In this document: piece after piece, positions 283 through 55,494 of the stretch
How positions within the stretch are numbered: the stretch's first letter is position 1
How the letters are laid out: the number at the start of each line of letters is the position of its first letter
Assembly: GCF_018977255.1 (NCBI RefSeq)
Contig: NW_024704743.1
Coordinates: 11,038,001 to 11,102,000 of the forward strand
Reading direction: 5' to 3'
Source of the DNA: Callorhinchus milii
Lineage: Eukaryota
Length of the DNA stretch: 64,000 bases
Program-made: the position numbers and the translations under genes
The notes under the pieces: model-generated
What the model saw: the letters and a program-made list of their open reading frames with translations, nothing else
Told to the model about the DNA's origin: nothing
Databases searched by the model: none

Positions 283-526
283 GAGAATGACCAATCTTAC
301 CTGGGAAAATGCTGGCCAGGACATTGGGGATAGTACCATGGGATCTGTAACTTCCACTTGAACAGACAAATGGGATCTTGGTTTAATATCCAAAGGAGCG
401 CACCTCCAACAAGGTAGCACACACTCAGAGTTGGAGTATCATTGGAGTATCATTCCTAGACCAATTCCTAATGTGGGATCATAACTTACAAGCTTCTATC
501 GCAGAGAGGAGAGTGCTACCTGTTGA
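283..526 (-). mobile_element. Old Deu-domain SINE fragment (SacSINE1/AmnSINE-like)
   Basis: Reverse complement of the Deu core (ccatgggatc...ccacttgaacagaca...cttggtttaat) and of the tRNA-like head; homologous to the + copies at 12983 and 56041. Confidence 0.65.
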
Positions 527-1309
527 ATATCCTTTTAGAAAATAAAGACCATTTAACTAGGACTAATGAAAGGGGATCAGGAGGTAGAAAAGGAGGTAGC
601 AGGGAGAACTGACTAGAGGGATTTTGGTTGGATTCTTTGATTTGTAACTTGTGAGCTGAGAATAAAAGAGATAAAAGATTTTGAGATGAGGAGGAAATTT
701 TTTTAGAAAAAGGGATCTGATATCAAGGTAAGCCTGAAAGGAAATTAAGAAAAGGACAGGCAAAAGCCTAGGTTTTTCCCTGTTTAGGGAAACTCAGATA
801 AATATTTTTTTGGCTAGACATGGGGGGAAATAAATAGGAGTGGAAAGGGGAAGGAGAGGAGAGAGAAGGTCACCAGTGTGAAAGTAGGAGAAATAGTTGA
901 GGATATGGTGTAGGAAAGCACCAATGGATATACTGGGTATAGAATGAGAAATACAAGTGAAAATGTCAGGGAAGCTGAAAGAAGAGTGGGGCAAAAGTAA
1001 TGGTAGCAGTGAGAGGAGAAATTGTGGTGGAAAAAAGAGAAGTGCAATCAGACGAGAAGGGCAAAGGAGAGGAAAGTGAGACTGAAAAAGTGGTGAGGAA
1101 AAGAGAATTGGAGAAAAGTGAGAAAGCTGCAGCGAAGCAGTGTGGGGAAATAGCAGAGAAGAATAGATGGGGGAGTGGAAATAAGATGGCGGCAAGTGGA
1201 GTGAAAAGTGGATGATGGCGAAGATGCAGCAGGAAGCCACGATGATGTGGTGGGAAGCTGTGAGGCTACGGCAGGAAGTCGTGAGGCCGATAAGGCAGGA
1301 CATGGCGGA

Positions 1310-2020
1310 AACAAGAAGAAGAACAACAACAACCTCAAGATTGCAGTTGTATAGTGCCTTTCACATCAGGAGGATGTCCCAAGGTGCTGGACAGTGCACA
1401 GCATTTCAGATCCGAGTTGGGATTAGGGGGTAGAAGGGCAGGGAGGGGAAGGGGGATGGCTGAAGAGGAGGGTTTTAAGGCGGGACTTGAAGGAGGCTAA
1501 GGAGGGGGTGAGGTGGAGTGATTGGGGGATGGAATTCCAGAAGTTGAGAGCAGAGTGGCTGAAGGCTCTCCTGCCAATGGTGGGGCAGGTGTGACGGGGG
1601 ACGCAGAGCAGGCCAGAGCCAGCTGAGCGGAGAGAATGGGTGGGTTGGTAGGGGGTTAGGAGGGCGCAGAGGTAGGGTGGGGCGAGGCCATGGAGGGCTT
1701 TGTAGGTGAGGACCAGGATGTTGAACTGGATCGTCTGAAGGATAGGGAGCCAATGGAGTCATGCGAGAATCGGGGGATGGGGTCATGGAGTTTGGTGCGG
1801 GAGAGGACACGGGCTGCAGAGTTCTGGATTATCTGCAGCCTGTGGAGGGAGGAGTTGGGAAGGCAGACAAGCAGGGTGTTTGCATAGTCGAGCCTGGAGG
1901 TGATGAAGGCATGAACAAGAGTTTTAGCAGCCTGAGGGGTGAGGTAGTGGTGGAGTCGGGCAATGTTACGGAGGTGAGGGAAGGCAGAGCGGGTCATGGC
2001 TTGGATGTGGGGAAGAAAAG
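1310..2020 (-). mobile_element. L2 LINE 3' fragment inserted in Tx1 copy A
   Basis: Minus ORF 1656-2204 contains HLRNIARLHHYLTPQAAKTLVHAFITSRLDYAN...LQIIQNSAARVL (L2 ORF2 C-terminus); (CAA)n on + is the (TTG)n tail. Confidence 0.92.
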
Positions 2021-2699
2021 ACAGTTGACGGAAAACCGTGAGGATGCGGCAGGAAGCCACGAGAACATGGTGGAAAAAACCATTAGACCAAATAAGGTAG
2101 GACCCAAAGCTGCGGCATGAGGCAGAGAAGGCAGGGCCCAAAGTAGTGGCAGAAAACCATGAGGACATGATGGGAAGCCGTGAGGCAGTGAAGGTAGGGC
2201 CCAAAACTACAATGGAAAGTTATGGAGGGAGGGAAAATGATGAAACAGGAAACAGTGAGACCACGGAGTTAAGCCACAAAGCCGCGGGGGAAATTGCTGA
2301 GGCAGAACAGGCAGGACCCTAAGGTGCAGTGGAAAGCAAGAAGGCAGTGAATGAGAGCGGGGAAGGTGAAGCCGGGGCGGTGGAGAGGAGAACAGCACTC
2401 GGAGAATGAGAAGGGGACACCCTTGAAAGCGGGGTGGAAGAACCCCCAGCACCAAGGCCAGCAGAGGGTGGAGAACACCTACTGGAGAGGAGACTTTCTG
2501 CAACCAAATGGGGGCACAGAAGGAAAAGAAATGAAGAAAGAATTGAGCAGAGCCATGGGGTAGTGCAAGCCCAACCCTCTGGAAATGAAGGGTGATGGAA
2601 CTGAGGGACCAGGTAAGGAAGCAGCAAAAGCACTGGAAGCTGTAGCTTGAGGTGATGAGGTGACCTCCAGCCAGGGGTAGCCAAAGGCCACCCCCCAAC

Positions 2700-3993
2700 C
2701 CCATATCATATGTGTCTGCGGTCAGGGGACAAGCAAGCACAAAAAAAGGAGAAAAGTGGAGGACTTATATATAAAAGACTTCATCCTTTTCGAGGTCCGG
2801 TAAGATGTGTCATATAATATGGACAGAATAGCCTTTGTAAAGAAGGCTTTGATGGGATTCTGTGCTGTATAAAAGGATCAAATGATCCTGACCCTATATG
2901 AGATTATGGCCCTGTTCCAAGAGAGGTTAAGACAGGAGAGGAAACCCCTTGTAAGAATGAATGACCCCCCAAGTGCCGGAGCCCGACATCCGGGATTTTT
3001 TGGAGAGGCACTGTGAGGAGGTGCTCAATATAAGGGAGACAAAGAGGAGGTGGGGATTTGGGAGTGGGAGGTGTGGCTGAAGCTGTATCAGAGAGGTGAG
3101 GGTAGTGTTGCTCACATTCTCTCCTGATTTAGCATTGGGAACTGTGCTATCCTGGACAGCCCCAAGCATGCCTGAGATGTAAACAGGTTACATTGCAGCC
3201 TGCACGCAGAATGTGTGTTGGAACTACAAAAGTTTTGTCAAAAGACTGCCCGACAGCCAAAAGGTGTGACATGTGCAGTGAAACGGGACACCTTTACAAC
3301 ACTTGCCCAAAGAGGTTGCCACCCCGGAATCCAGATGAGGCAGCAGATGTTGAAGGGAAAGCAGGTGGTCACACAAAAGGGTCACACAACAGGAAGAGAG
3401 GAAAAAAGGGAAGCAAAGGAGAAGGAGGTCGTGCTGCTCATGGAGGAAAAGGTAATACCCGGGCAGGCAAACATGGAATCGTCTTTGGACGATACCTCCT
3501 CCGAGGAAGAAATAGAGTCAAGCGAGAAGGAAGACCGCGAGGAAGAGATGGAGGTAAACCGAGAAAAACTTATAAAACCTCCAAGCCAGAACAGGAAGAG
3601 AGACAAATAAAAAGGTCTGGAAAAGAGGGACTGCAGGTGGCTGGCAAAAGGGCACAAGAAAAAAAGAAGAGGGTGAAAACCCAACAGAAGGGAATATGGA
3701 CATGGACCGTGAAGGAGCAGGGTGACAGCTATATGGGGGAAAGAAAGGCGGGAACCCCAAAAAAGTATGGACAATTGGATGAGGTTTCTGCCAGACACCC
3801 CCAACAACAATGGGGAGTAAAAGCAGGAAGGGGACTGGAGATGGAGAGACAAAGAAATTGGAAAACCCCCAGACTACAGGAAAAAGTGGGGAGTTTTCTG
3901 CCAGCTGCCCCAACATTATCCTTGGGATTAAAAACAGGCAGAGGACTTGTGATATGGGGAATATGGGAAACCGGAAATAGAAGGAAAGAATGA
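2700..3993 (+). pseudogene. Tx1 ORF1 (gag-like, ZCCHC3-like zinc-knuckle protein), disrupted
   Basis: SYVSAVRG, MDRIAFVKKALMGFC, YPGQPQACLRC and CDMCSETGHLYNTC (C-x2-C-x4-H-x4-C, ~3265-3306); stops and frameshifts; true start is probably further upstream. Confidence 0.8.
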
Positions 3994-4149
3994 AGTTTTG
4001 GTCAAGGGTCCTGCCAGCTCTCCCAAAGATGTTTGGAAGAGATCCGACCAGGAGTTGGGAAAAGAAGGGGACAAGGAAAAGGTGGTAAATATAGGGTAAA
4101 ATGTCATTGAGGATAGGTATCCTGAATTTGAGCAGCGTATATGATAAAA

Positions 4150-6690
4150 CACATTGTGTTGTGACACTCCAGTACCTGTCCAGGGTAAAGTCCGATGTTG
4201 TGTTCCTGCAGGAGTGCTGGATCCCGCACTACGACAGCTATGGAGCCTGGTCCAAGTGGTAGGATTCCTTTGGACCCTCTGTGTGGTCCAGCGGTAATGA
4301 CAGCTGCAGCCCTGGAGTGGCAGTCCTACTTCGGAAGAAAAACCTCACTATCACTGACTGTAACAAGGTGGTGGGTGGGGGAGACTCTTCGTGGTGGACA
4401 GATTGTATAACGGAGCTCCGATCAGGCTTATTAATGTGTATGCCCCAACAGGGAAGAACGAATGCCTGGCCCTGATCCAGATGCTTTCTGCGCTGTTGCT
4501 CACACCCAGACCAGTCAGTCTAGGAGGAGATTTCAATTATATATTGGAGAGAGATGGGAGATCTACCAAATCTGATGGGAAAATGGACGTCATGACCAAG
4601 CTGCTCCAAAGATGGATGCGCAGTAGCGTGACATTTTCAACATTTTCAAGGCCGCTGCAGATGGTGCACCAAAGCTTTTCCAGGCCAAATGTGTCATTTT
4701 TTTCACGCATAGATTTCCTGTTTGTTTTGAGAGGTCTCGAGGTTAAGAGTACAGATGTCCAACCGGCGTTCTTTACTGACCACTGCCTCCTGCTGGCTAA
4801 TCTGCAAGTGCAGGAAAGTCATAGGACAGGTAAGGGGACATGGAAATTAAACATGAAATTAATGACCCGGGAAAATATTGAGGAGTTGCAGAAGGAGTAT
4901 TGAGGGTGGAAGTCCTTGAGGGATTTCTGCGACTCCTCGACTGAATGGTGGGGAATGGTAAAGATAAGAATTAAGAAATTCTTTGTTCAGAAAGGGGTAA
5001 GGTTAGCTCTAGCTAGGCATAAGAAAATGGCTAGACTGTAGACCAGGGCCTCCTGCGGCAGCAATTGGAAAGCACAGAGGTTAGGGAGGAACTTGAGGAG
5101 ATGAGAGTCCCAACAAACCTTGCTCTTTGCCTCCAGGTGTACAACAGTCAGGAGGGGATTATGGCGGACTCAATGAGAAAAGGCAACATCATCCTGATAT
5201 TTAAAAATTAATGGGAGAGGGAAAAGATGAAAAACTGGAGGCCGATTTCACTGCTAAATGTAAGATCTTAGTTTCTGAGAGGATTAAGACTGTGCTGGAT
5301 AAGGTGATACACCCTGACCAGACCTGTGCAATTCCAGGCCAGAGGATCTCTGACAACCTTGCATTGCTCAGGGATACCATCACCTACATGCAGGACAGTG
5401 GAGTGGAGACTTGCCTAATCAGTCTGGATCAGGAGAAAGCCTTTGACAGAGTATCTCATGACTACATGTTGGGCATCTGCGACTGTTTCGAATGGGCTTT
5501 GGCACCAGGGTAAATAGACAAAAAGATGAGGTGATGTATTTCGTCAACTGGCGAGAACCCAAATGTATACCATTTGTAGTCATGCTGGATTACATCAAAA
5601 TCCTAGGCATCTGGTTTGGGGCTGTCGGGGCATGCAAGAAAAACTGGGACAAACGGATAATGCAAGAAGAAACTGGTAGGTGGCAACAGCACTCACTGTC
5701 AATCACTGGGAAAAATCTGGTGATCCAGTGCTAGGTGATCTCTGTTCAATCACCAGAGCCATTTTTCAATTTATCTGGAGATCTGGGAAGGATCGCGTCA
5801 GCAGAGCCACAATGCATAAGACTCCAGATAATGGAGGTAAGGGCGTCCCAGATGCAGCCCAGATTATCATGGCCACTTTCATGTGCAGCTGCGTGAGAAT
5901 ATGCCTGGAGTCCTGCTATGTAGGCTCTGTGTACTGATACATGCTGGGCTTTTATCTGTATTCAGTATTAAGAAGGATGGGGCTGGCGGACGCACCGCAG
6001 AACACTTCTTTCAGTTGGCGTGTCCCAAGGTATTAGGCGAAATAGAAAAATTCCTGTCCAGGAATATTGTGGACCCTGTGGGATTACCAAGTGGTCAGCA
6101 CAGGAGGTGATAGGCATTATCCGAGAGAGAGAGGTGAGGGAAATGATAGTCGGGTACCCTTCGGCAACTGTCAGCCAGATCTGGAAGAACGTCTCGTAAC
6201 CAGCCCTGTTCAACAAACACCAAGATGTGGCCTCGATGGCAGTCAAAAGATCCCTCCCTCTCCAGGCTTTTATGCACTACAGAGGCTTGGGCCCGACTGC
6301 ATGCTGCTCTCGGGAAGTTTGCGGAAGTAAGGAGAGTGTGGAGCACTTTTTCCTGCAGTGCACATACACCAAGGAGGTGTGGAAAAGGACACCGTGGCTA
6401 CTCTCACGTTTCGTCACAGAAGTTCTGCTGTCATGGCACCCTGTGCTGTATGGCCTCTTCCCAGGGACGCATGGAGAGACATACATCGAATGTGCATTAA
6501 GGGTCATCAACTCGGTGAAGGAAGCCCTGTGGGACTGCCGAAACTGGATGGTCTTCAGGCATGGAGATGGGGGTCATTAAAGGCCTGCTACAGGCGAGAT
6601 TCAGGGAATACGTCATGAGGGACCCGCTAAAGCTGGGGCTAAACACAGATGGGGCCTGACCCAGGCCAGAGGATCTCCATGATGCTTTAG
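4150..6690 (+). pseudogene. Tx1 ORF2 (APE endonuclease/reverse transcriptase), disrupted, RT core partly deleted
   Basis: VVFLQEC, INVYAP, GGDFN, SRIDF, FTDH, GKGTWKLN; WRPISLLN, IHPDQTCAIPGQRISDN, SLDQEKAFDRVSHDY; C-terminal CCSREVCGSKESVEHFFLQC; no YADD segment seen (jump near 5490). Confidence 0.9.
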
Positions 6691-7695
6691 TGCCACCTCC
6701 CCACACGGCAGGGTATCTATGCTCAGCGAAGGTTTGTAGAGAGGGACACCTGACCTGTAAGCAGAGAATGTCCCAAGATGTGATGTGTGTGGGTGGGTTG
6801 AAAAAAGTCTCTCCCCATGAAGGGGGGAGAAACAAAGTGGGAATTTTGGCTTGCCATCCATAAGGGAAGGAAGGCAGAGCTGGGAATAGCCCAAAGTGTA
6901 ACTGCTCCATGAAAATAAAGGCAGCAGAATAGAGAAGCGAGGAGGCCCTGGTCCCTCCGCTCGAGGAGAGTGGGAGACAGTAGCGGCCGACACAAGATAA
7001 GGGGCACTTCTTTCAAAATATCGAATTTGAAGTGGATGGGTTTTATTTTTTTATGGCTGTGTTTTCTTTCCACGAGGAATGTATTGTTTGTATAATTGCT
7101 TAGTGAACAAAAGGGCGATTTCTTACAGTTTTGAAATGTGTTCTTTTTCGTGAATGTTTCTTTGTTTCTGTGATGGGTGTGTTTTAATATTAATATATGT
7201 GGAAAGTTGAATATATTTTTTATATATACTAAATAAATATATATTTGTTTTAAAAAAAAGGAGCTGAGAATAAAAGGGTTTTTGAAGTGAAGGAAAAAAA
7301 TAGAGAGGGTCCTTTATCAGGCTCCTGAGAGGAGACTGGAGAAAAGACGAGCAAAAGCCTGGGTTTTTCCCCTGTTTAGGGAAAACTGGGTTTAAATTTT
7401 TGCCTAATCATGTGGAAAAAGAATAGGAGTGGGAAGGTGAATGAGTGGAGGGAGATGACAGGGATTGGTTTGGAAGAAGAAGAATTAGAAAGTAAAGTGT
7501 ATAAAAACACCAGGAGGCATAGAACAAGAAGTAGGAACAAAAATGGCAGGGAAGCTGAAAGCAGAGAGAGGGGGAAAAGTAATAGTAGAAATAAGAAGAG
7601 AAATGGTGGTGGAGACAAGAGAAGTAGAGGAAGGGAGGAGAAAGGGAAAGGAGAGAAAAATGGGACGGAGAAAGTGGTAAGGAAAAGAGAGGAGA

Positions 7696-7985
7696 AAACA
7701 ACAACAACAACAAGATTCCATTTATAGAGCGCCTTTCACATCAGGAGGATGTCCCAAGGCGCTGTACAGTTGGGTCAGGACCCAAGGGAGGGAGCGAGGA
7801 GGGGGTAGAGAGTCGAGAGGGGAGCTGAAGGCACGGTCAAAGAGAAAGGTCTTGAGACCGGCCTTGAAGGAGGAAAGGGAGGAAGGCCAGCGAGGAGAGA
7901 GTTCCCATAGTCCAGCTTTGAGGTGATAAAGGCGTGGACCAGAGTTTCAGCAGCGTGAGGGGTGAGGTAGTGCCGTAGTCTGGCG
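7696..7985 (-). mobile_element. L2 3' fragment (internally deleted) inserted in Tx1 copy B
   Basis: (CAA)n then gattccatttatagagcgcctttcacatcaggaggatgtcccaaggcgctgtac, same family as 37916-38481. Confidence 0.85.
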
Positions 7986-8690
7986 AAGTGAGAAAGCTTC
8001 CGTGAAGCAAAATGGGGTAAAAAGCAAAGAAGGATACAGTGTGGAGTGGAAATAAGATGGCGGGGCTGAGAGGGTCATGGAAGTGGAAACAGGCGGATGA
8101 AGACGTGGCGGAAAGCTGACACAGGAAGCTGGGAGTCCAAGGAGGTGGGACCCAAAGGCACGGCGGAAAGCAGAAAAGCCATGAAGGAGAGCAGTGAAGG
8201 TGAAGCCGGGGCGGTGGAATGGAGAGCAGCGCTAGGAGAACGAGCCCTGAAGACCAACGAGAGCAGAGGGGAGAGAATCCGTAACACCGAGGAGAGCAGA
8301 AGGGAGAGAATCTCTAATACTGAGGATCCTGTGGAGGAGAGATTTTCTGTGACCAAACAGGGTGCAGAAGCAAAGGAAATGAGGAAAGATGTGGGCTGAG
8401 CTACTGGGCAGTGCAAACCCAACCCCAGGAAACGAAGGGTGATGGACGTGAGGGGTCAGGTCAGGGAGCAACAAAGGCACCAGATACTGCAGCTCCCTCT
8501 AGGGGTGATGAGGCGACCTCCAGCCAGGAGCACCTGAGGCCCTCCACCCCAACCCCATATCATATGCGTCTGTGGTCGGAGGACAAACAAATGGACGTAA
8601 AAATAGAAACGAGGAGGACTTATACATGAAGAACTCCATCCTTTTCAAGGTCCAGGACGATGTGCCATATAATATGGACAGAACATATGT

Positions 8691-8996
8691 GCTCAGTGGT
8701 TAGAGCACTCGCTTTGCAAGCGAGAGATCTGGGTTCGATTCCCGGCAGGGCGAAACCTTGGGCAAGTTTCCTTACTCCATACGCCCAATAATAATCCCTC
8801 CAAAAAAACAAAACAATAATAAATTGGTCATTTTGAATCCATGACTGTTTGTGGGACATTGCTGTGCGCAATTGGCTGCCGCGTTCGCCCACAAATATAC
8901 GGTCAATTCACTTTACAGTGTGTTCTGTGAAGCGCTTTTGGACGTCCTCCCGACGTGAAAAGCGCTATATCAAATGCAAGGATTATTATTATTATT
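8691..8996 (+). mobile_element. tRNA-derived SINE (short form; partial CORE + Deu + L2 tail)
   Basis: A-box gctcagtggttagagc, anticodon-like arm ctcgc-tttgcaa-gcgag, B-box gggttcgattcc, Deu block, L2 stem-loop, (TTA)n tail. Confidence 0.93.
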
Positions 8997-9172
8997 TTAT
9001 ATTCTATGCCCAGGATTAAGAACAGCCTTCATAAAGTTTTATTTGCCTGTCCTGCCACCTTAAGGGCTTTGATGGGATGAACCCCAGGTCTCTCTGTCCC
9101 TGCAGCTCAATAAAGATTGTACCATCAGCTTATAAAGCCTCTCTTTATTCTTCCTCCCAAACTGCATCTCTG
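8997..9172 (-). mobile_element. CR1 LINE ORF2 internal fragment
   Basis: Reverse complement matches the CR1 at ~21500-21670 (gatggtacaatc...gacctggggttcat...aaggtggcaggacagg). Confidence 0.75.
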
Positions 9173-9464
9173 CAGACAACAACAAAATTACATTTTTATA
9201 GCATCTCTCACGTCGGGAGGATGTCCCAAGGCGCTGATAAAGGAACGAGGTGACATGCATCTCATTTGAGGAGGTGATGAAGTTGAAGGAGATCACCCTC
9301 CAGAATCAAGGGGAGGAGTTCCTGAGTCCGCATGAGTTTAGGGCTCTCTTCCAAGTGAGATTAAGGCAGTAGAGGAAAGATCTTCTAAGAATGAGTGATC
9401 CCCAACTGCCAGAGTCCAATATCCGCATTTTATTAGTAGAAGCACTGTGAGGACGTGCTTAATA

Positions 9465-9967
9465 TAATAATAATAATAATAATCCTTGCATTTGATATAG
9501 CGCTTTTCACATTTTCTAGACGTCTCAAAGCGCTTCACAGAATATACTGTAAAGTGAATTGACTGTATATTTGTGGGCGAAACGCGGCAGCCAATTGTGC
9601 ATAGCAGTGTCCCACAACCAGTCGTGGATTGAGAATGACCAATTTATTATTGTTTTGTTTTTTGGAGGGATTATTTTTAGGCGTGTGGAGTAAGGAAACT
9701 TGCCCAAAGTTTTGCCATCATGAGGTGAAAAGCCAATTTGAGGCATGTAAGTGTTGGCGAGGTCAATCTCTCTTTTCCAAGGACTGAAGACTCCAAGAAT
9801 TCCTCATTGACTAACAAACGGTTTCCTACTTACTGCTGGTAAACAGAGGCATGTGTGAGGAGTAAGGAAACTTGCCCAACGTTTCGTCCTGTCTTGCCTG
9901 GGAATCTAACCCAAGTCCGCTCGCTTGTGAGGCGAGGGCTCTAACCACTGAGCTACAGAGGACTCCA
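9465..9967 (-). mobile_element. SINE pieces: short-form body (9465-9716) plus long-form head (9805-9967)
   Basis: (TAA)n, tail and Deu block, then cctacttactgctggtaaacagaggca and ctaaccactgagctac...ggactcca. Confidence 0.85.
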
Positions 9968-10586
9968 GTCCTATGTTTCTAAGCAACTCCATGTGACACT
10001 CCAAACAGCTCAGTAACTATTTTTTCCAATGAAGTTAATAAATTAAATAAATCAATGAAGTTAAACAAGGGAGATAAAGGAGGTAGAGGTCTGGGCATCC
10101 AAGTGGGATGTGTGGCTGAAGCCACTGGAAAGGTGAAGTTGCTCACATCCCTCTCCAGATATAACATTGGGAGCTTCAGGGGGACCCTGTATTATCCTGG
10201 ACAGCCACGAGCATGCCTGAGATGTGGACAGGTGGGGGACTACTTTGCAGCCTGCACAAAAACTGTGTTGGAACTGCAGAAGTTTCGTCCACTTGGCAAA
10301 AAACTGCCCTACGGGAAAAAGATTTGACTTGTTTGGGGAAACTGGACACCTTTACTGTACTTGCACAAGTGGGCAGAAACCAGTCCTGATCCGTCAACCT
10401 ACAGCCCAAGTAAGGCAGCAGGTGACAGAGGTAAAGCAGGCCATCAACAAAAAGGGCCGCAACAGGAAGCTAAGAAATAAGGACAGCAACAGGAGGCGGA
10501 GGTCGTGCTGCTCGTGGAGGATATTTTGATACCCAGGCAGGTGAACATGGATGATACCTCCTCCGGGGAAGACATAGTATATAGTT

Positions 10587-10908
10587 GTGAAGTCCTGTAG
10601 CTCAGTGGTTAGAGCGCTCGCTTTGCAAGCGAGAGACCTGAGTTCAATTCCAGGCAGGGCGAAACCTTGGGCAAGTTTCCTTACTCCACACAGAGCCTAA
10701 TAATAATCCCTCCAAAACCCAAAACAATAATAAATTGGTCATTTTCAATCTACGACTGTCTGTGGGACATTGCTGTGGGCAATTGGATGCCGCGTTTGCC
10801 CACAAATATACAGTAAATTCACTTTACAGTGTGTTCTGTGAAACGCTTTGGGACGTCCTCCCGACGTGAAAAGCACTATATCAAATGCAAGGATTATTAT
10901 TATTATTA
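10587..10908 (+). mobile_element. Young tRNA-SINE inserted in ORF1 of Tx1 copy B
   Basis: Full head agtcctgtagctcagtggttagagc through (TTA)n; ORF1 sequence resumes at gactcaagtgaggag. Confidence 0.95.
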
Positions 10909-12626
10909 TAGACTCAAGTGAGGAGGAAGTCAGGAGGAAGAGATGGAGGTCACACTGCACCAACTTCCAAAACCTCCAAACCAGAACATTGATGAACAAA
11001 TGGAGTCCAGAAAAGAGGGACAGTGGCAGCTGGCTGGCAAAAAGGCACAAGAAAGAAAGGAGAAGAGGGTGAAAAAACAACAAAAAAAGGAGACAGAGAC
11101 CAGGGACAGTGAAAGCTTTAGGACGACAGCGCAAAAGAAAGAAAAGACGGGAACCCCCAATAAGCATGGACATTTGGGTGAGGTTTCTGCCAGCCCCCCC
11201 AACAACAGTAAGACTAAAACCGTCAATGGGACTGGAGACAGAGAGACTAAGCGAAAGGTGAAAAACCCCAGGTTAGGCCCTGACCCCTCCATTCGAGAAG
11301 AGTGTGAGAAAGTAGTGGCCCCCGCAAGAAAACAGACTATATTGAAGTAAATGCTTTTTCTTTTTTCTGTTATGGATGTGATTTCTTCCTCGAGGCAAGT
11401 GGAATGTATTGAGTTAGATGTTTGTTTGAGAAACAAAAGGATGGGGCCGTAGTGCATTATCACGGGATTGAAGCGTATTTTCGAATGTCTTTTTTCTCTT
11501 AGGGGTGTGTGTTTTATGAGAAAACTTGATTACTTATTTATTTTTAATATACCAATGAATATATATTTCTTTATATTAAAAAAAGTGAGCTGAGAATATC
11601 GAGCGTTGAGAACATAACACTGAGCCAGGCTGACACATAAATGAATAGGCACACAAGACCTTGGTTTAATGTCGCACCTGAATGACAACACCTCTAAGAA
11701 TGCAGATCACCCCAGCCTAGACTGTGTGAGTTCAAAGGTCTGCATGGGATCTGAACCTACAGGATTTTTATTTAAAGATGAGATTGCTCCCATTTGAGCT
11801 AGGATGTTGAAATCCCTCTCTCTACCCCAATGTTGGCCAACCTTTATGGTCAGCCAAAAAAATATATTTTCTTGATTGAATATTTTTGATTCTTACCGTA
11901 GAATGTTTATTTATTGAATATGTCTTGATTTTTGTGATTGAACACAAGCTTACCCAGACTCATGCAAATGTCAGGGGCTTCTTGACGCCCCCCATGGACC
12001 ACTTCAGGCCCGCAGGCTACACCTCTCCATCGACCTGACTTTAAATTCAGCTAAAGTCCTACCTCTTTGACCATATCTATTGTTATTGTACCCCTTTCCT
12101 CTACTCCTTCTTCAGTTCTCGGGGACTGACCCCATTATTGTGAAGCACTCCGAGACAGTATTGTATGTGAAGGGCATGATATCAATGTAGGCTGTTGTTC
12201 AATTTGCCTTCAAAGTAATTCTTTTTGTGAAGTGCTTTGAGAAGTTCTGATACAGGAACTATATAAAACGTAGATATTGTAGCACCGCTGAACATTTATG
12301 TTTCTCATGGTTTTTGATCATTTGCTTAAATGATATTAAAAAATTTTAAACTTAATTTCTTCTTCCCCCCCAATTCCTTTGGTTCTATCACATGGGACCT
12401 GTGCTGTCCCCAATTATATTTTCTCTGGGATTTGTTTCCAATTATTTCTTGTTTCTTTGACTATGTTCACCTGCAAAATACAGTCTCTACACTTCACAAT
12501 AAATCCTGTGAAAGGTTTTGAGATGTCCTCCTGACATAAATTTGAAGAACATCTTCAAATACCATGAGAAGAATGGTGTGGGGGCTCTGTAAAACAAAAG
12601 TACAATTACATCTTGTAATTGAGTCA

Positions 12627-23379: not shown

Positions 23380-26167
23380 TTCTTCAAATGCATGTGCCTA
23401 AATGCACGTAGCTTAGGGAATAAGGTTGATGAGCTGCAGGTTCAACTGCCCGTAGGGGTTTACGATGTGGTGGCAGTAACCGAGACATGGCTCAAGCCAG
23501 GACAGGAATGGGAGTTAAATATTCCAGGATATAATGTGTTCAGGAAGGATAGAGAAGGAAGAAACGGAGGAGGGGTGGCAATATTAGTTAAGGATACAAT
23601 TATAGCTGTAGAAAGGAATGAGGCTCTGGAGGGCCCGACAACAGAATCCATCTGGTTAGAGATAAGAAATAAGAAAGGAGTGGTTACACTGATAGGGGTT
23701 TATTATAGACCACCAGACAGCGGGAAGGAGATAGAGGAGCAGATCTGCAACCAGATCGCGGATACATGTAAGGCGAACAGAGTTGTGATAATGGGAGATT
23801 TCAATTATCTCAATATAGACTGGCAAAATATCAGCGCTAAGGGCAAGGCAGGAGCAAGATTCATAGACTGTGTACAGGAAAATTTTCTTGAGCAGTGTGT
23901 CTCCAGCCCTACGAGGAAGAAAGCATTGCTGGATCTAGTCCCTGGGAATGAAATAGGTCAGGTTGAACAGGTTTCGGTAGGGGAGCATCCAGGTAACAGT
24001 GACCATAATATTATTAGATTTAGATTACTCATGAACAGGGACAAAGTACAGTCAAGGGTGAAAATGCTTGACTGGAAAAGGGCTAATTTTGATGGGCTAA
24101 AAAGGGACCTAGAGTTGGTGGACTGGCAAGTAAGACTAGCAGGTAAAACGACTCATGAGCAATGGGAGATCTTCAAAGGTATGATAGTTCAGGGTCTAAA
24201 TAGATATACTCCCACAAAAGGGAAATGTGCGAGAACCAAGCCAGCCTGGATGACCAGGGATATTCTGTCTAGGATGAAAAAGAAGAAGACAGCGTACGAC
24301 AGTTGGAAGACACAAGATACTGAGGATAGCAAAGTGCATTATAGAGAATGCTGGAGTGATCTTAAAAGAGTGATAAGACAGGCTAAAAGATCGCATGAGA
24401 AGAGGTTAGCGGGTAACATAAAGGGGAATCCTAAAATATTTTACAAGCACATAAAGGAAAAAAGGTTAGTTAAAGGTAGGGTGGGGCCAATCAAAGACAA
24501 TGACGGCAATCTTGTTGTGGAGGCAGAGGGCATGGCTGATGTACTGAACGAGTACTTTGCATCTGTCTTCACAACGGAAATGGATGCCCCAAATGCCGCA
24601 GTATTGGATGAGAGGGTAGAGGAAATAGATCAGATTACTATAGACAGAGAGGAAGTTCTGAAAAGATTGACTGGGCTCAAAATTGATAAGTCACCAGGAC
24701 CAGATGGGTTTCACCCAAGGTTGCTGTGGGAGATACGGGTTCAAATAGCGGAGGCTTTGGCCATTATATTTCAATCTTCATTGGACACAGGAGTGGTGCC
24801 AAGAGACTGGAGAGTGGCTAATGTTACCCCCACTACAAAAAGGGGCAGAAAGACAAACCCGGAAATTACAGGCCAGTCAGCCTAACTTCGGTAATAGGAA
24901 AACTACTGGAGACCATAATCCGGGACAGAATAAATCTCTACTTAGAGGAACACAAGGTAATTAGAGACAGCCAACATGGATTTGTTAAAGGCAAATCTTG
25001 CCTAACAAATCTAATAGAATTTTTTGAAGAGGTGACGGCGAGGGTTGATGAGGGAAATGCGGTGGAGATTATTTACATGGATTTCAAGAAGGCTTTTGAC
25101 ATAGTACCGCATAAGAGATTAATCCAAACATTAGAGGCCCACGGTATTAAGGGGACAGTGGCAGTTTGGATTAAGAACTGGCTGAGTGACAGAAAGCAGA
25201 GGGTGGTGGTTAATGGGTGTTTCTCGAAATGGAAGGAGGTGTGCAGCGGTGTCCCCCAGGGATCGGTATTGGGACCACTGCTCTTTCTAATATATATTAA
25301 TGATCTGGACTTGGGCATAAAGAGCACTATTTCCAAGTTTGCAGATGATACAAAGTTAGGTAGGGTAGTAAATAGTGAGGAGGACTGTAACCAACTGCAA
25401 GCAGACATACACAGAATGGTGGAATGGGCTGACATGTGGCAGATGGATTTCAATGTGGATAAGTGTGAGGTGATATACCTAGGTAGGAAAAATTATAGGA
25501 GGCAATATAGACTTGGTAGCTCAATCTTAAGGGGTTGAATGTACAGAGAGATCTGGGTGTTCAAAAAACCAAATCATTAAAGGTAGCGGGGCAGGTAGAT
25601 AAGGCAGTAAAAAAGGCATTTGGTGTACTGAGCTTTATTAGTAGGGGCATAGAGTATAAGAGTAGGTAGGTTATGGTTAATCTATACAAAACACTGGTTA
25701 GGCCTCAGCTGGAGGACTTCGTCCAGTTCTGGGCACCTTACTTCAGGAAGGACATTAAGGCACTGGAAAGGGTGCAGAGGAGATTCACGAGAATGATACC
25801 AGGAATGGGGAGCCTTAGCTATGAGAACAGGCTGGAGAAGTTAGGACTTTTCCCATTAGAGCAGAGAAGGTTACACGGGGATCTGATAGAGGTCTTCAAG
25901 ATCATGAAAGGTTTCGACAGCTAGATAAGGAAAAGCTGTTTCCGCTGGTAGGTGTGTCTGTGACCCGTGGTCACAGTCTTAAGATATCTACCAAAAGAAG
26001 CAGAGGGGAGGTTAGAAGAAATGTTTTCACTCAGCGAGTTGTTTGAATTTGGAATGATCTGCCTGAAAGGGCAGTGAAGTCCAATTCGATAACAATTTTT
26101 AAGAGAGAACTGGATAGGTATCTGGGGAAGATGGGTTTGCAGGGTTATGGGGAGAAAGCTGGTTAGT
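23380..26167 (+). pseudogene. CR1 ORF2 endonuclease-reverse transcriptase, few disablements
   Basis: [67 protein letters not shown]; frameshift at ~24830, stops at ~25536 and ~25668, further shift at ~25920. Confidence 0.95.
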
Positions 26168-52684: not shown

Positions 52685-52702
52685 GCAAACACCATCTCTT
52701 GG

Positions 52703-53262
52703 GGTAGAGAGAGTGGGGTAGAGAGAGGAGGGGCGAGAGAGTGGCGGGGAGAGAGTGGCGGGGAGAGAGGAGGGGGCGAGAGAGAGGGGAGAGAGAAAGG
52801 GGGAGAGAGAGCAGAGGGAGAAAGTGGGGGCTGGGAGAGAGGGGGGAGAGAGAGAGAGAGAGAGAGGGGGGGAGAGAGAGGAGGGAGGGGGGAGAGGGGG
52901 GAGACAGGGAGAGAGGAGGAAGGAGAGAGGTGGGGAGGAAGAGATGAAAGAGAGGAGTGAGAGACTGAGAGTGATTGCGAGAGGGAGAGCTGAGAAAGGG
53001 TGATGGGGGAATGTGAGAGGCAGAGAGAGTGAGAGAGGGTGAGGTGGGAGGGAGTGAATGTGAGGAGGAGAAAAAGAAACAGAGAGTGGGAAGATTGAGA
53101 GAGGGTGATTGAGAAACATTGTGTGTGGGACTGAGTATGTGTGAGAGAGAAAAGGAGAGGAAGGAAGAGAGGAGAGGGGGAGAAAGTGATTGAGAGGGGG
53201 CAGGTGGAGTGTGAGAGGGTAGAGAGAGTGTGAGAGGGTGTGATAAGGGGAGTGAGAGAGAG
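52703..53262. repeat. Polypurine (GA-rich) low-complexity tract
   Basis: Almost only G/A with GGG runs. Confidence 0.95.
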
Positions 53263-53269
53263 TAATTTG

Positions 53270-55023
53270 TACCCCACCCCCACACTCTCTCCCCCATCTC
53301 TCTCCTCCCTCTCTCCACCCCTCTTACACCCTCCCCCTCTCTCCAACTCCCTCCCCCACTTCTTCCAAATGTTCTCTCTCCCCCACTCTCTCTCCTCTCT
53401 CTCTCCACACTCTCTCTCACCTTTCTTTCACCCTTCTCTATCTCCACCCTTCTCTCTCTCTCCCCTCTCTCCCCATTCTCTCTCACCCCTCCATCTCACT
53501 CCCGGCCCTCTCTCTCTTCCCCCTCTCTCACCCTCCAGCTCCCCTCTCTTCCCCCACCCTCCCCCACCCCCACTTCACCGGCCTCTCCTTCTCCCTTCTC
53601 TCCCCCGCGCTCTCTCTCCCGCCTCCTCTCTCCCCCACTCTCTCACCCTTCCTCTCTTTCTCCCCCTCTCTCCCACCCCTCTCGCTCAACCTCTCTCCAA
53701 ATCTATCTCCCAATCTCTCTTGCTTCTCTCTCCCCCTCTCTCTCTGCCCCTTCTCTATCCCAATCTTTCACTCCCAATCTTTCTCTCCCCGCTCTCTTTC
53801 TCCCAATCTTTCACTCCCAATCTTTCTCTCCCCGCTCTCTTTCTCCCAATCTTTCACTCCCAATCTTTCTCTCCCCGCTCTCTTTCTCCCAATCTCTCTT
53901 ACTCTCTCCTAATCTCTCTCCCGCTTCTCTATCCATCCTCTAACCCTTCCTCTCCCCCTTCTCACTTCCCCGTCTTTCTCCCCCATCTCTCCCTCCCAAT
54001 CTCTCTCTCCCGCATCTTCTCTCCCCAATTTTTCTCTCCCCCCCTCTCTCCCAATCCCTCACTCCTAATCTCTCTCTCCCCACTCTATCTGACCCCTCTC
54101 TCTCCCAATCTCTCTCTCCCACTTCTCTATCCACCCTCTCCCCACTCTCTCTTCCCCCCCTCTCTCTCCCATCTCTCCGCCCCTCTCTCTCTGCCTCTCT
54201 CTTCCAATATCTTTCTCCCCTCTCTCTTTCCCCTCCCTCTCTTTTCCTTCTTTCTCTCACCCTGCCCTCTCTCTCTCCCAAATTCTCTCTCCCCCCTCTT
54301 TCTCTCCTTATTCTCTCTTCCCCCTCTCTCTGCCCCCTCTCTCTCCACCATCTCTCTCCCCTCTCTTTTTTCCTTGCTCGCTTCTCCCTCTCTCTCTCCC
54401 CGCCCTCTCTCTCTCTCCGCCTGGTCTCATCCTCCCCCTGCTCTCAACCTCCCTCTCTCATCTCTTCAGCCCCTTTCACCCTCTTTTGCTACCCCCACTC
54501 TCCCCAATCTCTCTCCCCCCTCTCTCTCCCTCCTCTCTCTGCCCCCTCTCTCCCCACCTTCTCTCTCTCCGCCATATCTCTCTCCCTCCCCTCTCTCTCC
54601 ACTACCTCTCCCAATCTCTCTCTCTCCCAATTTTTCTCTCCCCCCTCCTCTCCCACCTCCCTCTCCCCTTTCTCTTTCCCCTCTCCCCACTCTCTCCCTC
54701 TCTCTCTTCCTGCTCTCTCTCTGCCCCTCGCTCACCCTCTCTCTGCTCTCACTCTCTCTCACCCCAACTTTCTCCCCCTCTCTCTCACCCCTCTCTCACT
54801 CCCCTCTCTCCCCACTCTCCCTCTCACCTTTCTCTCTCACTCCTCTCTCTCCCTCTCTCTCTCCCACTTTCTTTCCCAATTTTTCTCCCCCAATCTCTTT
54901 CTGCCCATCCCCTCACCCTCTCTCCCCCTCCCTTTATCACCCTTCTCTCACTCCCCCCTTTCTCTCCCCCTTTCTCCAAATCTCTTTCTCCCAATCTCTC
55001 TCTCCTAATCTCTCTCTCCCCTC
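53270..55023. repeat. Polypyrimidine (CT-rich) low-complexity tract, ~1.75 kb
   Basis: Almost only C/T with recurring CCCAATCT. Confidence 0.95.
53759..53887 (+). repeat. Minisatellite, 3 perfect copies of 43 bp
   Basis: cccaatctttcactcccaatctttctctccccgctctctttct at 53759, 53802 and 53845. Confidence 0.92.
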
Positions 55024-55494
55024 ATCAAATGCAGGGATTATTATTAATGCAGTGTTGGGGATGTGCTGCATTATCAGATGCGGTGATAAACTGAGCTGCC
55101 TGTTCAAGTAAACATTAAGGATCGCAGGGCACTATTCAAAAAGAGAAGGGAGTTTCTCCTGGTGTCCTACTTAACAATCGCACAAATAAAATTGTCATTC
55201 ACTTCATGGCTGTTTGTGAGAGATAAAAAGTTCCATAGGTTAGTGGTATAGTGACTGAAGGTTTGGTCATTGATGGTAGAGCGCAGGGGGTGGGCGGACA
55301 TACAGCAAGCTCATATTAGCTGAGTGTAGAGGGTAGAAACAGATGAGTAACATACAAGAAGATCAGAAGGATTGAGAGAGGTCCTAAGATGTAAAGGGAT
55401 TTATACACTCTCCTGTTTGGCCCTTCCACTCGACAAACTCAGACTTGCTACACATACCTCCCCCCTCCTTCCCACCATGTGTCTTTAGACACTA

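What the first reader, a model, noticed from the sequence alone, without database searches (positions are those of the whole stretch)
651..11598. Two diverged Tx1 retrotransposons stacked head-to-tail on one 14-bp site: candidate sequence-specific family with target GTGAGCTGAGAATA
Seen: GTGAGCTGAGAATA occurs at 651-664 (before copy A), at 7260-7272 (one T missing; directly after A's poly(A) and before B) and at 11585-11598 (directly after B's poly(A), where unrelated sequence resumes). A and B differ by many substitutions and indels and carry different nested insertions, so this is not a recent tandem duplication. Established: many Tx1-clade elements are site-specific (Keno at U2 snRNA, Dewa at tRNA arrays, Mutsu at 5S, Kibi/Koshi at microsatellites, Xenopus Tx1L in Tx1D) and can form such arrays. 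Inference: two independent insertions into the same target. The rebuilt empty site (gatttgtaactt-GTGAGCTGAGAATA-tcgagcgttgag) matches no RNA gene or microsatellite I recognise, so the target may be undescribed.
Basis: partly seen in the sequence, partly recalled or inferred. Interest (0 to 1): 0.72.

Follow-up and report, generated by a model that had tools for sequence, protein, structure and literature searches.

The report
Two LINEs stacked inside probable LTR
Two related, long-dead jumping genes of a shark-type fish sit head-to-tail at exactly the same spot inside a small piece of another jumping gene, most likely because they aimed at that spot, a habit already described in crocodilians and frogs.

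Summary
Observation confirmed: the 14-mer lies at all three junctions (exact, 13/14, exact) and behaves as a target-site duplication. Two corrections. B is not a second whole element: it has the 5' end, ORF1 and 3' tail but no ORF2 (HAL1-like). And the target is not anonymous DNA: it lies 16 bp from the end of a 160-bp TGTT..AACA element with a 4-bp duplication that splits an old SINE, probably a solo LTR. Independent insertion is favoured over tandem duplication: A and B differ by K2P 0.22-0.30, but stop codons (9 of 1450 codons) date their decay at about 0.05 each, and other genomic copies lie closer to A than B does. Against: A/B changes show no codon-position bias. Family-wide specificity is unproven: no genome was held and no other copy's flank was seen. 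Tx1-clade LINEs inserting into LTR elements, and tandem insertions sandwiching a duplication, are published for crocodilians; this scan noted the same pattern on other genomes (unchecked notes). New member of a known kind.

The parts
359..520 (-). Left piece of an old SINE (Deu/SacSINE1 type by recall); lacks its head tip; ends in TACC (517-520), left copy of a 4-bp duplication
   Evidence: Matches other window copies; upstream 40 nt fit 7 other copies (1 of 2000 random pieces scored as well), the next 18 nt do not (72% did)
521..650 (.). Left part of the 160-bp host element (starts TGTT); candidate solo LTR
   Evidence: no second copy in the window; no Rfam match at threshold
651..664 (+). 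14-bp target-site duplication, copy 1 (exact)
665..7259 (+). Copy A: decayed two-ORF LINE of Tx1-type architecture with poly(A); 6595 bp
1307..2031 (-). L2-like 3' fragment nested in A; frames still largely open
   Evidence: L2 label by recall
2691..4050 (+). ORF1 remnant of A (RNA-binding domain and CCHC knuckles, charged tail); frameshifted; limits approximate
4101..6660 (+). ORF2 remnant of A: APE endonuclease, part of RT, zf-RVT; two large internal deletions (about 160 and 105 residues, the second in the RT core), 7 stops in 797 codons; 3' limit approximate
   Evidence: loose ends at 5470
7260..7272 (+). Target-site duplication, copy 2 (one T missing)
7273..11584 (+). Copy B: 5' end + ORF1 + 3' tail + poly(A), no ORF2; about 2.8 kb without nested repeats
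7690..7985 (-). L2-like fragment nested in B, at a different position from the one in A
8691..10909 (.). Zone of B's ORF1 interrupted by tRNA-headed SINEs and other repeats (8691-9000, 9035-9236, 9461-9716, 9803-9967, 10585-10909)
11271..11275 (+). Junction in B where ORF1 (A 3872) joins the 3' tail (A 6943); frame open from 10922 to a stop at 11348-11350
11585..11598 (+). Target-site duplication, copy 3 (exact)
11599..11614 (.). Right 16 bp of the host element (ends AACA)
11615..11637 (-). TAAC (right copy of the 4-bp duplication, 3 of 4 match) and the missing head tip of the SINE
   Evidence: 19 of 19 identical to the copy at 56058-56040; tip fits 7 other copies (0 of 2000 random pieces as well), upstream does not

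Best explanation
Order of events: (1) a short TG..CA element, most likely an LTR retrotransposon later reduced to a 160-bp solo LTR, inserted into an old SINE with a 4-bp duplication; (2) a Tx1-type LINE inserted into it by target-primed reverse transcription, nicking at the left edge of the 14-mer and 14 bp further on, so duplicating the 14-mer; (3) a second, already diverged relative inserted at the regenerated site with the same stagger, giving TSD-A-TSD-B-TSD. B had no ORF2, or lost it, so if it moved in that form it borrowed the endonuclease/RT of an A-type element. The family probably prefers this site in the host repeat, a safe harbour. Shown: anatomy, junctions, split SINE, missing ORF2. 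Inferred: independence of the two events (about 0.8), host = solo LTR (about 0.7), family-wide preference (about 0.6), which copy came first (undecided; B first fits the intact left flank and B's heavier load of nested repeats, the stop counts do not).
For: Three 14-mers at the junctions, same 5' start. A-B identity 0.75-0.81, K2P 0.22-0.30 in 8 segments, so a duplication needs 0.11-0.15 decay per copy; 9 stops in 1450 in-frame codons give about 0.05 (P(<=9) = 0.013 at 0.11, 0.0015 at 0.135). One change in 42 TSD bases: P 0.017 at 0.135, 0.20 at 0.07. Pieces of other genomic copies differ from A at 11-14% of places in 5 of the 6 distinct non-self pieces I read in table 8 (20% in the sixth), e.g. 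83 letters over 3322-3953, where B differs by 19-23%. At 13 places where most other copies differ from A or B, the partner shares the odd letter once. Only 7-11 other contigs per place, as many at B's 5' end as along A (run X1): a rare family, apparently rich in full-length copies. Host termini plus 4-bp duplication arise in 0.14-0.33% of random boundary pairs. Precedent: Kojima 2015, PMC4494074.
Against: A/B substitutions in the structured part of ORF1 fall 31/31/37 on codon positions 1/2/3, as for neutral decay; 3n indels are not clearly enriched (11 of 39 in ORF1). The ORF2-only stop count, where frames are fixed by homology, does not exclude 0.135 (P 0.08-0.13); ORF1 segments were partly chosen by openness, and short compensating frameshifts can hide stops. 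Copies were filtered at 80% likeness, which favours close ones; the 4 runs are one study and may include the source animal. No flank of any other copy was seen. The host has no second copy in the window, is short for an LTR, and no internal region or clear TATA box was found.
Confidence: 0.6

Rival explanations
1. One insertion, duplicated in tandem soon afterwards by unequal exchange between its two TSDs; B then lost ORF2 by a local deletion and both copies decayed neutrally. No target specificity needed.
For: Gives the same TSD-A-TSD-B-TSD layout and the same 5' start. No codon-position bias between A and B. ORF2-only stop count compatible with 0.135 decay at P about 0.1. B's junction was not among the 15 of 139 joints shown.
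Against: Pooled stop clock, TSD conservation and closer copies elsewhere in the genome all put the age at about half of what the A-B distance needs; 1 of 13 private sites shared.
Confidence: 0.15
2. Two independent insertions at a favoured nicking site of a loosely specific endonuclease; most copies lie elsewhere and the host repeat is not a dedicated target.
For: Crocodilian Tx1/SINEU preferences run from 13% to 90% of copies. The endonuclease hairpin of the shark relatives has 9 residues between its anchors, against eleven reported for Tx1L. No other flank seen.
Against: A family of some ten copies hitting one base twice by loose preference is improbable; the site is not the TT/AAAA consensus of L1 quoted.
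Confidence: 0.15
3. The 14-mer belongs to the element's own ends, or A+14-mer+B moved as one read-through transcript from an array elsewhere.
For: Both 5' ends start at the same base. In one search the farthest-reaching contig of another copy ends about 7249-7253 in all 4 runs, just upstream of B's start (letters not shown; a hint only).
Against: After the third 14-mer the host element resumes for 16 bp and closes with AACA and the SINE tip, as a true duplication of host DNA requires.
Confidence: 0.07

Closest known systems
Crocodilian Tx1-8_Crp and Tx1-4_AMi (Kojima 2015, PMC4494074; parts 2-4 of 5 read, supplements not available)
   Same: [quoted passage not shown]
   Different: Other host lineage; their target letters are in supplements I could not see, so sameness of the site is untested; preference there is counted over many copies, here over two at one locus.
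Tandem SINEU-3 insertions in Mariner-N4_AMi (same paper)
   Same: [quoted passage not shown]
   Different: SINEU is snRNA-derived and the target a DNA transposon with a 16-base duplication; here the passenger is an ORF1-only LINE derivative.
Xenopus Tx1L in Tx1D (passages of PMC1950540)
   Same: APE-type LINE whose endonuclease nicks one site inside another transposon.
   Different: Target is an apparent DNA transposon; specificity shown in vitro; longer endonuclease hairpin.
HAL1 (half-L1) of mammals (passage of PMC5753468; Bao and Jurka 2010 not held)
   Same: Non-autonomous LINE derivative that encodes only ORF1.
   Different: HAL1 are L1-clade, mammalian, multi-copy families; B is Tx1-type and not shown to have moved without ORF2.

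Membership tests
Tx1 clade of non-LTR retrotransposons | ORF2 with APE endonuclease, RT and C-terminal zinc-binding domain | tested here: met
   RVT_1 E 2e-07, zf-RVT E 1.1e-06, Exo_endo_phos E 0.044; collinear with 1100-1200 aa relatives; copy A only
Tx1 clade of non-LTR retrotransposons | ORF1 with CCHC knuckles and RNA-binding domains (that this separates Tx1 from vertebrate L1 is recalled) | tested here: met
   Weak zf-CCHC hits in A and B (E 0.0006-0.04); tblastn E 8e-07 to 2e-06 to ORF1 of relatives, one bearing RBD_ZCCHC3 domains
Tx1 clade of non-LTR retrotransposons | Poly(A) tail and target-site duplication | tested here: met
Tx1 clade of non-LTR retrotransposons | RT phylogeny groups with named Tx1 members (Tx1L, Keno, Kibi, Koshi) | not testable with these tools
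   None of the 30 relatives looked up carries a Tx1 name; A's RT core is deleted
Target-specific Tx1 families | Most copies share one target at independent loci | tested here: inconclusive
   Two copies at one site; other copies exist but their junction letters were not among the 24 of 1100 loose ends shown; no genome; metagenome scans gave no close locus
HAL1-like ORF1-only elements | 5' end, ORF1 and 3' tail kept, ORF2 absent | tested here: met
HAL1-like ORF1-only elements | Several copies share the same deletion junction | tested here: inconclusive
   B's junction not among 15 of 139 joints shown; a different joint 3800->7203 in 3 of 4 runs rests on 21 letters
Solo LTR (host element) | TG..CA termini and 4-6 bp duplication (passages of bioRxiv 10.1101/137141) | tested here: met
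   TGTT..AACA, TACC/TAAC; 0.14-0.33% by chance, 2-5% for TG..CA alone
Solo LTR (host element) | Multi-copy, and paired around an internal region elsewhere | not testable with these tools
   No second copy in the window; no genome held
RNA-gene or microsatellite target (Keno, Dewa, Mutsu, Kibi, Koshi types) | Flanks are an RNA gene or simple repeat | tested here: not met
   No Rfam match at gathering score in either flank, best E 0.42 and 1.2; no tandem repeat there

The most novel reading that the evidence does not exclude
A cartilaginous-fish Tx1 family and its own ORF1-only (HAL1-like) non-autonomous partner both aim at one nucleotide of a short LTR, exist almost only as full-length copies in that LTR, and use the LTR as promoter; B would be a target-specific half-LINE of the Tx1 clade, which I did not find in print (searches; open-licence library only, Repbase entries not visible).
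Probability: 0.25. Interest if true: 0.6.

Novelty: new member of a known kind. Interest (0 to 1): 0.4.

Why it matters
It would add a cartilaginous-fish case, and a defined 14-bp site, to the short list of LINEs that use other mobile elements as safe landing places. APE endonucleases with natural sequence preference are of interest for targeted insertion, but both copies here are dead and specificity is not yet shown. An ORF1-only partner with the same target would be the newer part. It does not bear on host gene function as far as tested.

Tried and rejected
Whole-genome search: no genome held. RNA gene or microsatellite target: rejected. Target inside a LINE coding region: no long frame in the flank translations. 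Host as a DNA transposon with long terminal inverted repeats: only 4 bp of inverted match seen by eye. Host piece as a decayed 5' end of the same LINE: p 0.05 against A, 0.28 against B, 10 comparisons, not supported. Structured RNA at the 5' ends or in the host: z -0.64, 0.09, 0.17. Metagenome scans: 0 of 44 stretches confirmed; 2 of 226, at 23-28% identity, not used. C-terminal homolog search: 0 of 9 candidates. Earlier-finding look-ups by sequence: nothing. One search pooled one A segment in the wrong frame (13 stops); corrected (9 stops). The contig-end hint at 7249-7253 is not counted as evidence. Supplements of PMC4494074, which list the crocodilian targets, could not be read.

Full report
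Observation. The 14-mer is exact at 651-664 and 11585-11598 and lacks one T at 7260-7272. These are the only 3 matches with up to 2 mismatches (shuffle mean 0.60; 2 of 100 shuffles reached 3). A (665-7259) and B (7273-11584) begin at the same base after it and end in poly(A) before it. This is the layout of a target-site duplication shared by two stacked elements.

Copy A. ORF2 runs from 4101 to about 6660 with endonuclease, RT and zf-RVT, broken by frameshifts, 7 stops in 797 codons and two large deletions, one in the RT core (loose ends at 5470). ORF1 has CCHC knuckles and matches the ORF1 of relatives that carry ZCCHC3-type RNA-binding domains. Of the 20 best-ranked or longest relatives looked up first, 8 are whale-shark gene models and others come from a newt and a teleost, so the host is probably a cartilaginous fish. 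None of 30 relatives looked up is named Tx1; clade membership rests on architecture and on my recall that vertebrate L1 ORF1 lacks such knuckles.

Copy B. Self-comparison shows B matching A over the 5' end and ORF1 and then jumping from A 3872 to A 6943 at B 11271/11275. B has no ORF2. That is the structure of HAL1, 'a non-autonomous derivative of L1 [that] encodes only ORF1p' (passage of PMC5753468). Whether B moved in this form or lost ORF2 in place is open: its junction is not among the 15 of 139 joints shown.

The target. No Rfam family or tandem repeat lies in either flank. But an old SINE at 359-520 lacks its head tip, and the tip appears at 11619-11637. Against 7 other copies in the window, the left piece fits upstream (1 of 2000 random pieces as good) and not downstream (72%), the right piece fits downstream (0 of 2000) and not upstream (76%). 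So 521-11614 is one insertion into the SINE. Without A, B and two of the 14-mers it is 160 bp long, starts TGTT, ends AACA and is flanked by TACC/TAAC. Such ends arise in 0.14-0.33% of random boundary pairs, or 2-5% if only TG..CA is asked; the pattern was found after the fact. TG..CA with a 4-6 bp duplication is the mark of LTR elements (passages of bioRxiv 10.1101/137141). The host has no second copy in the window, is short, and its orientation is unknown, so 'solo LTR' is an inference (about 0.7). The SINE's name (Deu/SacSINE1 type) is recalled; passages of PMC5499810 confirm only that such SINEs are old and common in cartilaginous fishes.

Two insertions or one duplication? For two insertions: A and B are 75-81% identical, K2P 0.22-0.30, which a duplication must split into 0.11-0.15 per copy. 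In-frame stops number 9 in 1450 codons (A ORF2 7/797, A ORF1 1/294, B ORF1 1/359); simulation puts the best fit at 0.05, with P(<=9) 0.013 at 0.11 and 0.0015 at 0.135 (one search had one segment in the wrong frame). One change in 42 TSD bases has P 0.017 at 0.135. Contigs of four runs of one study, laid at 80% likeness on 2040-7680, show other copies that differ from A at 11-14% of places in 5 of 6 distinct non-self pieces (20% in one; 32 of 1939 pieces were shown), including 13% over 3322-3953 where B differs by 19-23%. At 13 of the 40 shown variant places that fall in A/B-aligned DNA, the partner shares the odd letter once. Against: substitutions in the structured part of ORF1 fall 31/31/37 on codon positions, with no sign of selection; the ORF2-only clock does not exclude 0.135 (P 0.08-0.13); ORF1 frames were partly picked by openness; the 80% filter favours close copies. 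I put independence at about 0.8.

Is the family specific? In run X1, 7-11 other contigs cover each of the listed places along A and at B's 5' end alike, suggesting a rare family without the usual excess of 3' ends. A rare family hitting one base twice points to targeting. But the junction letters of other copies were not among the 24 of 1100 loose ends shown, no genome was held and both metagenome scans gave nothing close. The claim stays a candidate.

Mechanism (inferred from established target-primed reverse transcription): a nick at the left edge of the 14-mer primes copying from the poly(A); a second nick 14 bp along gives the duplication; the site is regenerated and hit again. If B moved without ORF2 it needed an A-type protein in trans. 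The order of A and B is undecided.

Comparison. Kojima 2015 (PMC4494074; parts 2-4 of 5 read; supplements unavailable) reports crocodilian Tx1 families that prefer Mariner, Harbinger or LTR elements, and tandem SINEU-3 copies sandwiching a TSD, read as sequential insertions. Tx1L targets Tx1D (passages of PMC1950540). Searches for a shark case returned no paper holding all terms, and none of 5 listed describes an ORF1-only Tx1 by title or abstract start; Repbase entries and subscription papers are not visible. This scan's notes describe the same pattern in other genomes (e1-8019870, shark or ray; e1-7858677); I reached the LTR reading before seeing them (note) and did not check them.

Verdict. 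Real feature, partly re-interpreted; new member of a known kind; interest 0.40.

Noticed in passing
P0047/P0154/P0155 and P0062/P0159-P0165: Teleost relatives of ORF2 carry consecutive or nearby locus tags (three in a row in Coilia; several close together in Metynnis), which hints at clustered or tandem arrays of related elements in fishes.
   Followed up: no
window 7314-7643: 7 of the 8 shown places where B differs from both A and most other copies are G to A changes; may reflect the G-rich strand or editing.
   Followed up: no
window 3800 and 7203: One contig in 3 of 4 runs joins ORF1 to the 3' tail (3402 skipped, 21 letters on the short side): possibly a second ORF2-less copy with another junction.
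   Followed up: no
window 24334-25535, + strand: Separate decayed LINE reverse-transcriptase fragment, 25-32% identical to the same relatives.
   Followed up: no
window 8691-63158: The 11 Rfam 'tRNA' hits coincide, where checked, with heads of a roughly 310-bp SINE whose best copies are 89-95% alike, not with tRNA genes.
   Followed up: partly
window 775-793 and 7362-7390 (approximate): A short hairpin near the 5' end is kept in both A and B, but the regions fold no better than shuffles.
   Followed up: partly
window 52701-55026: Long GA-rich then TC-rich low-complexity block.
   Followed up: no
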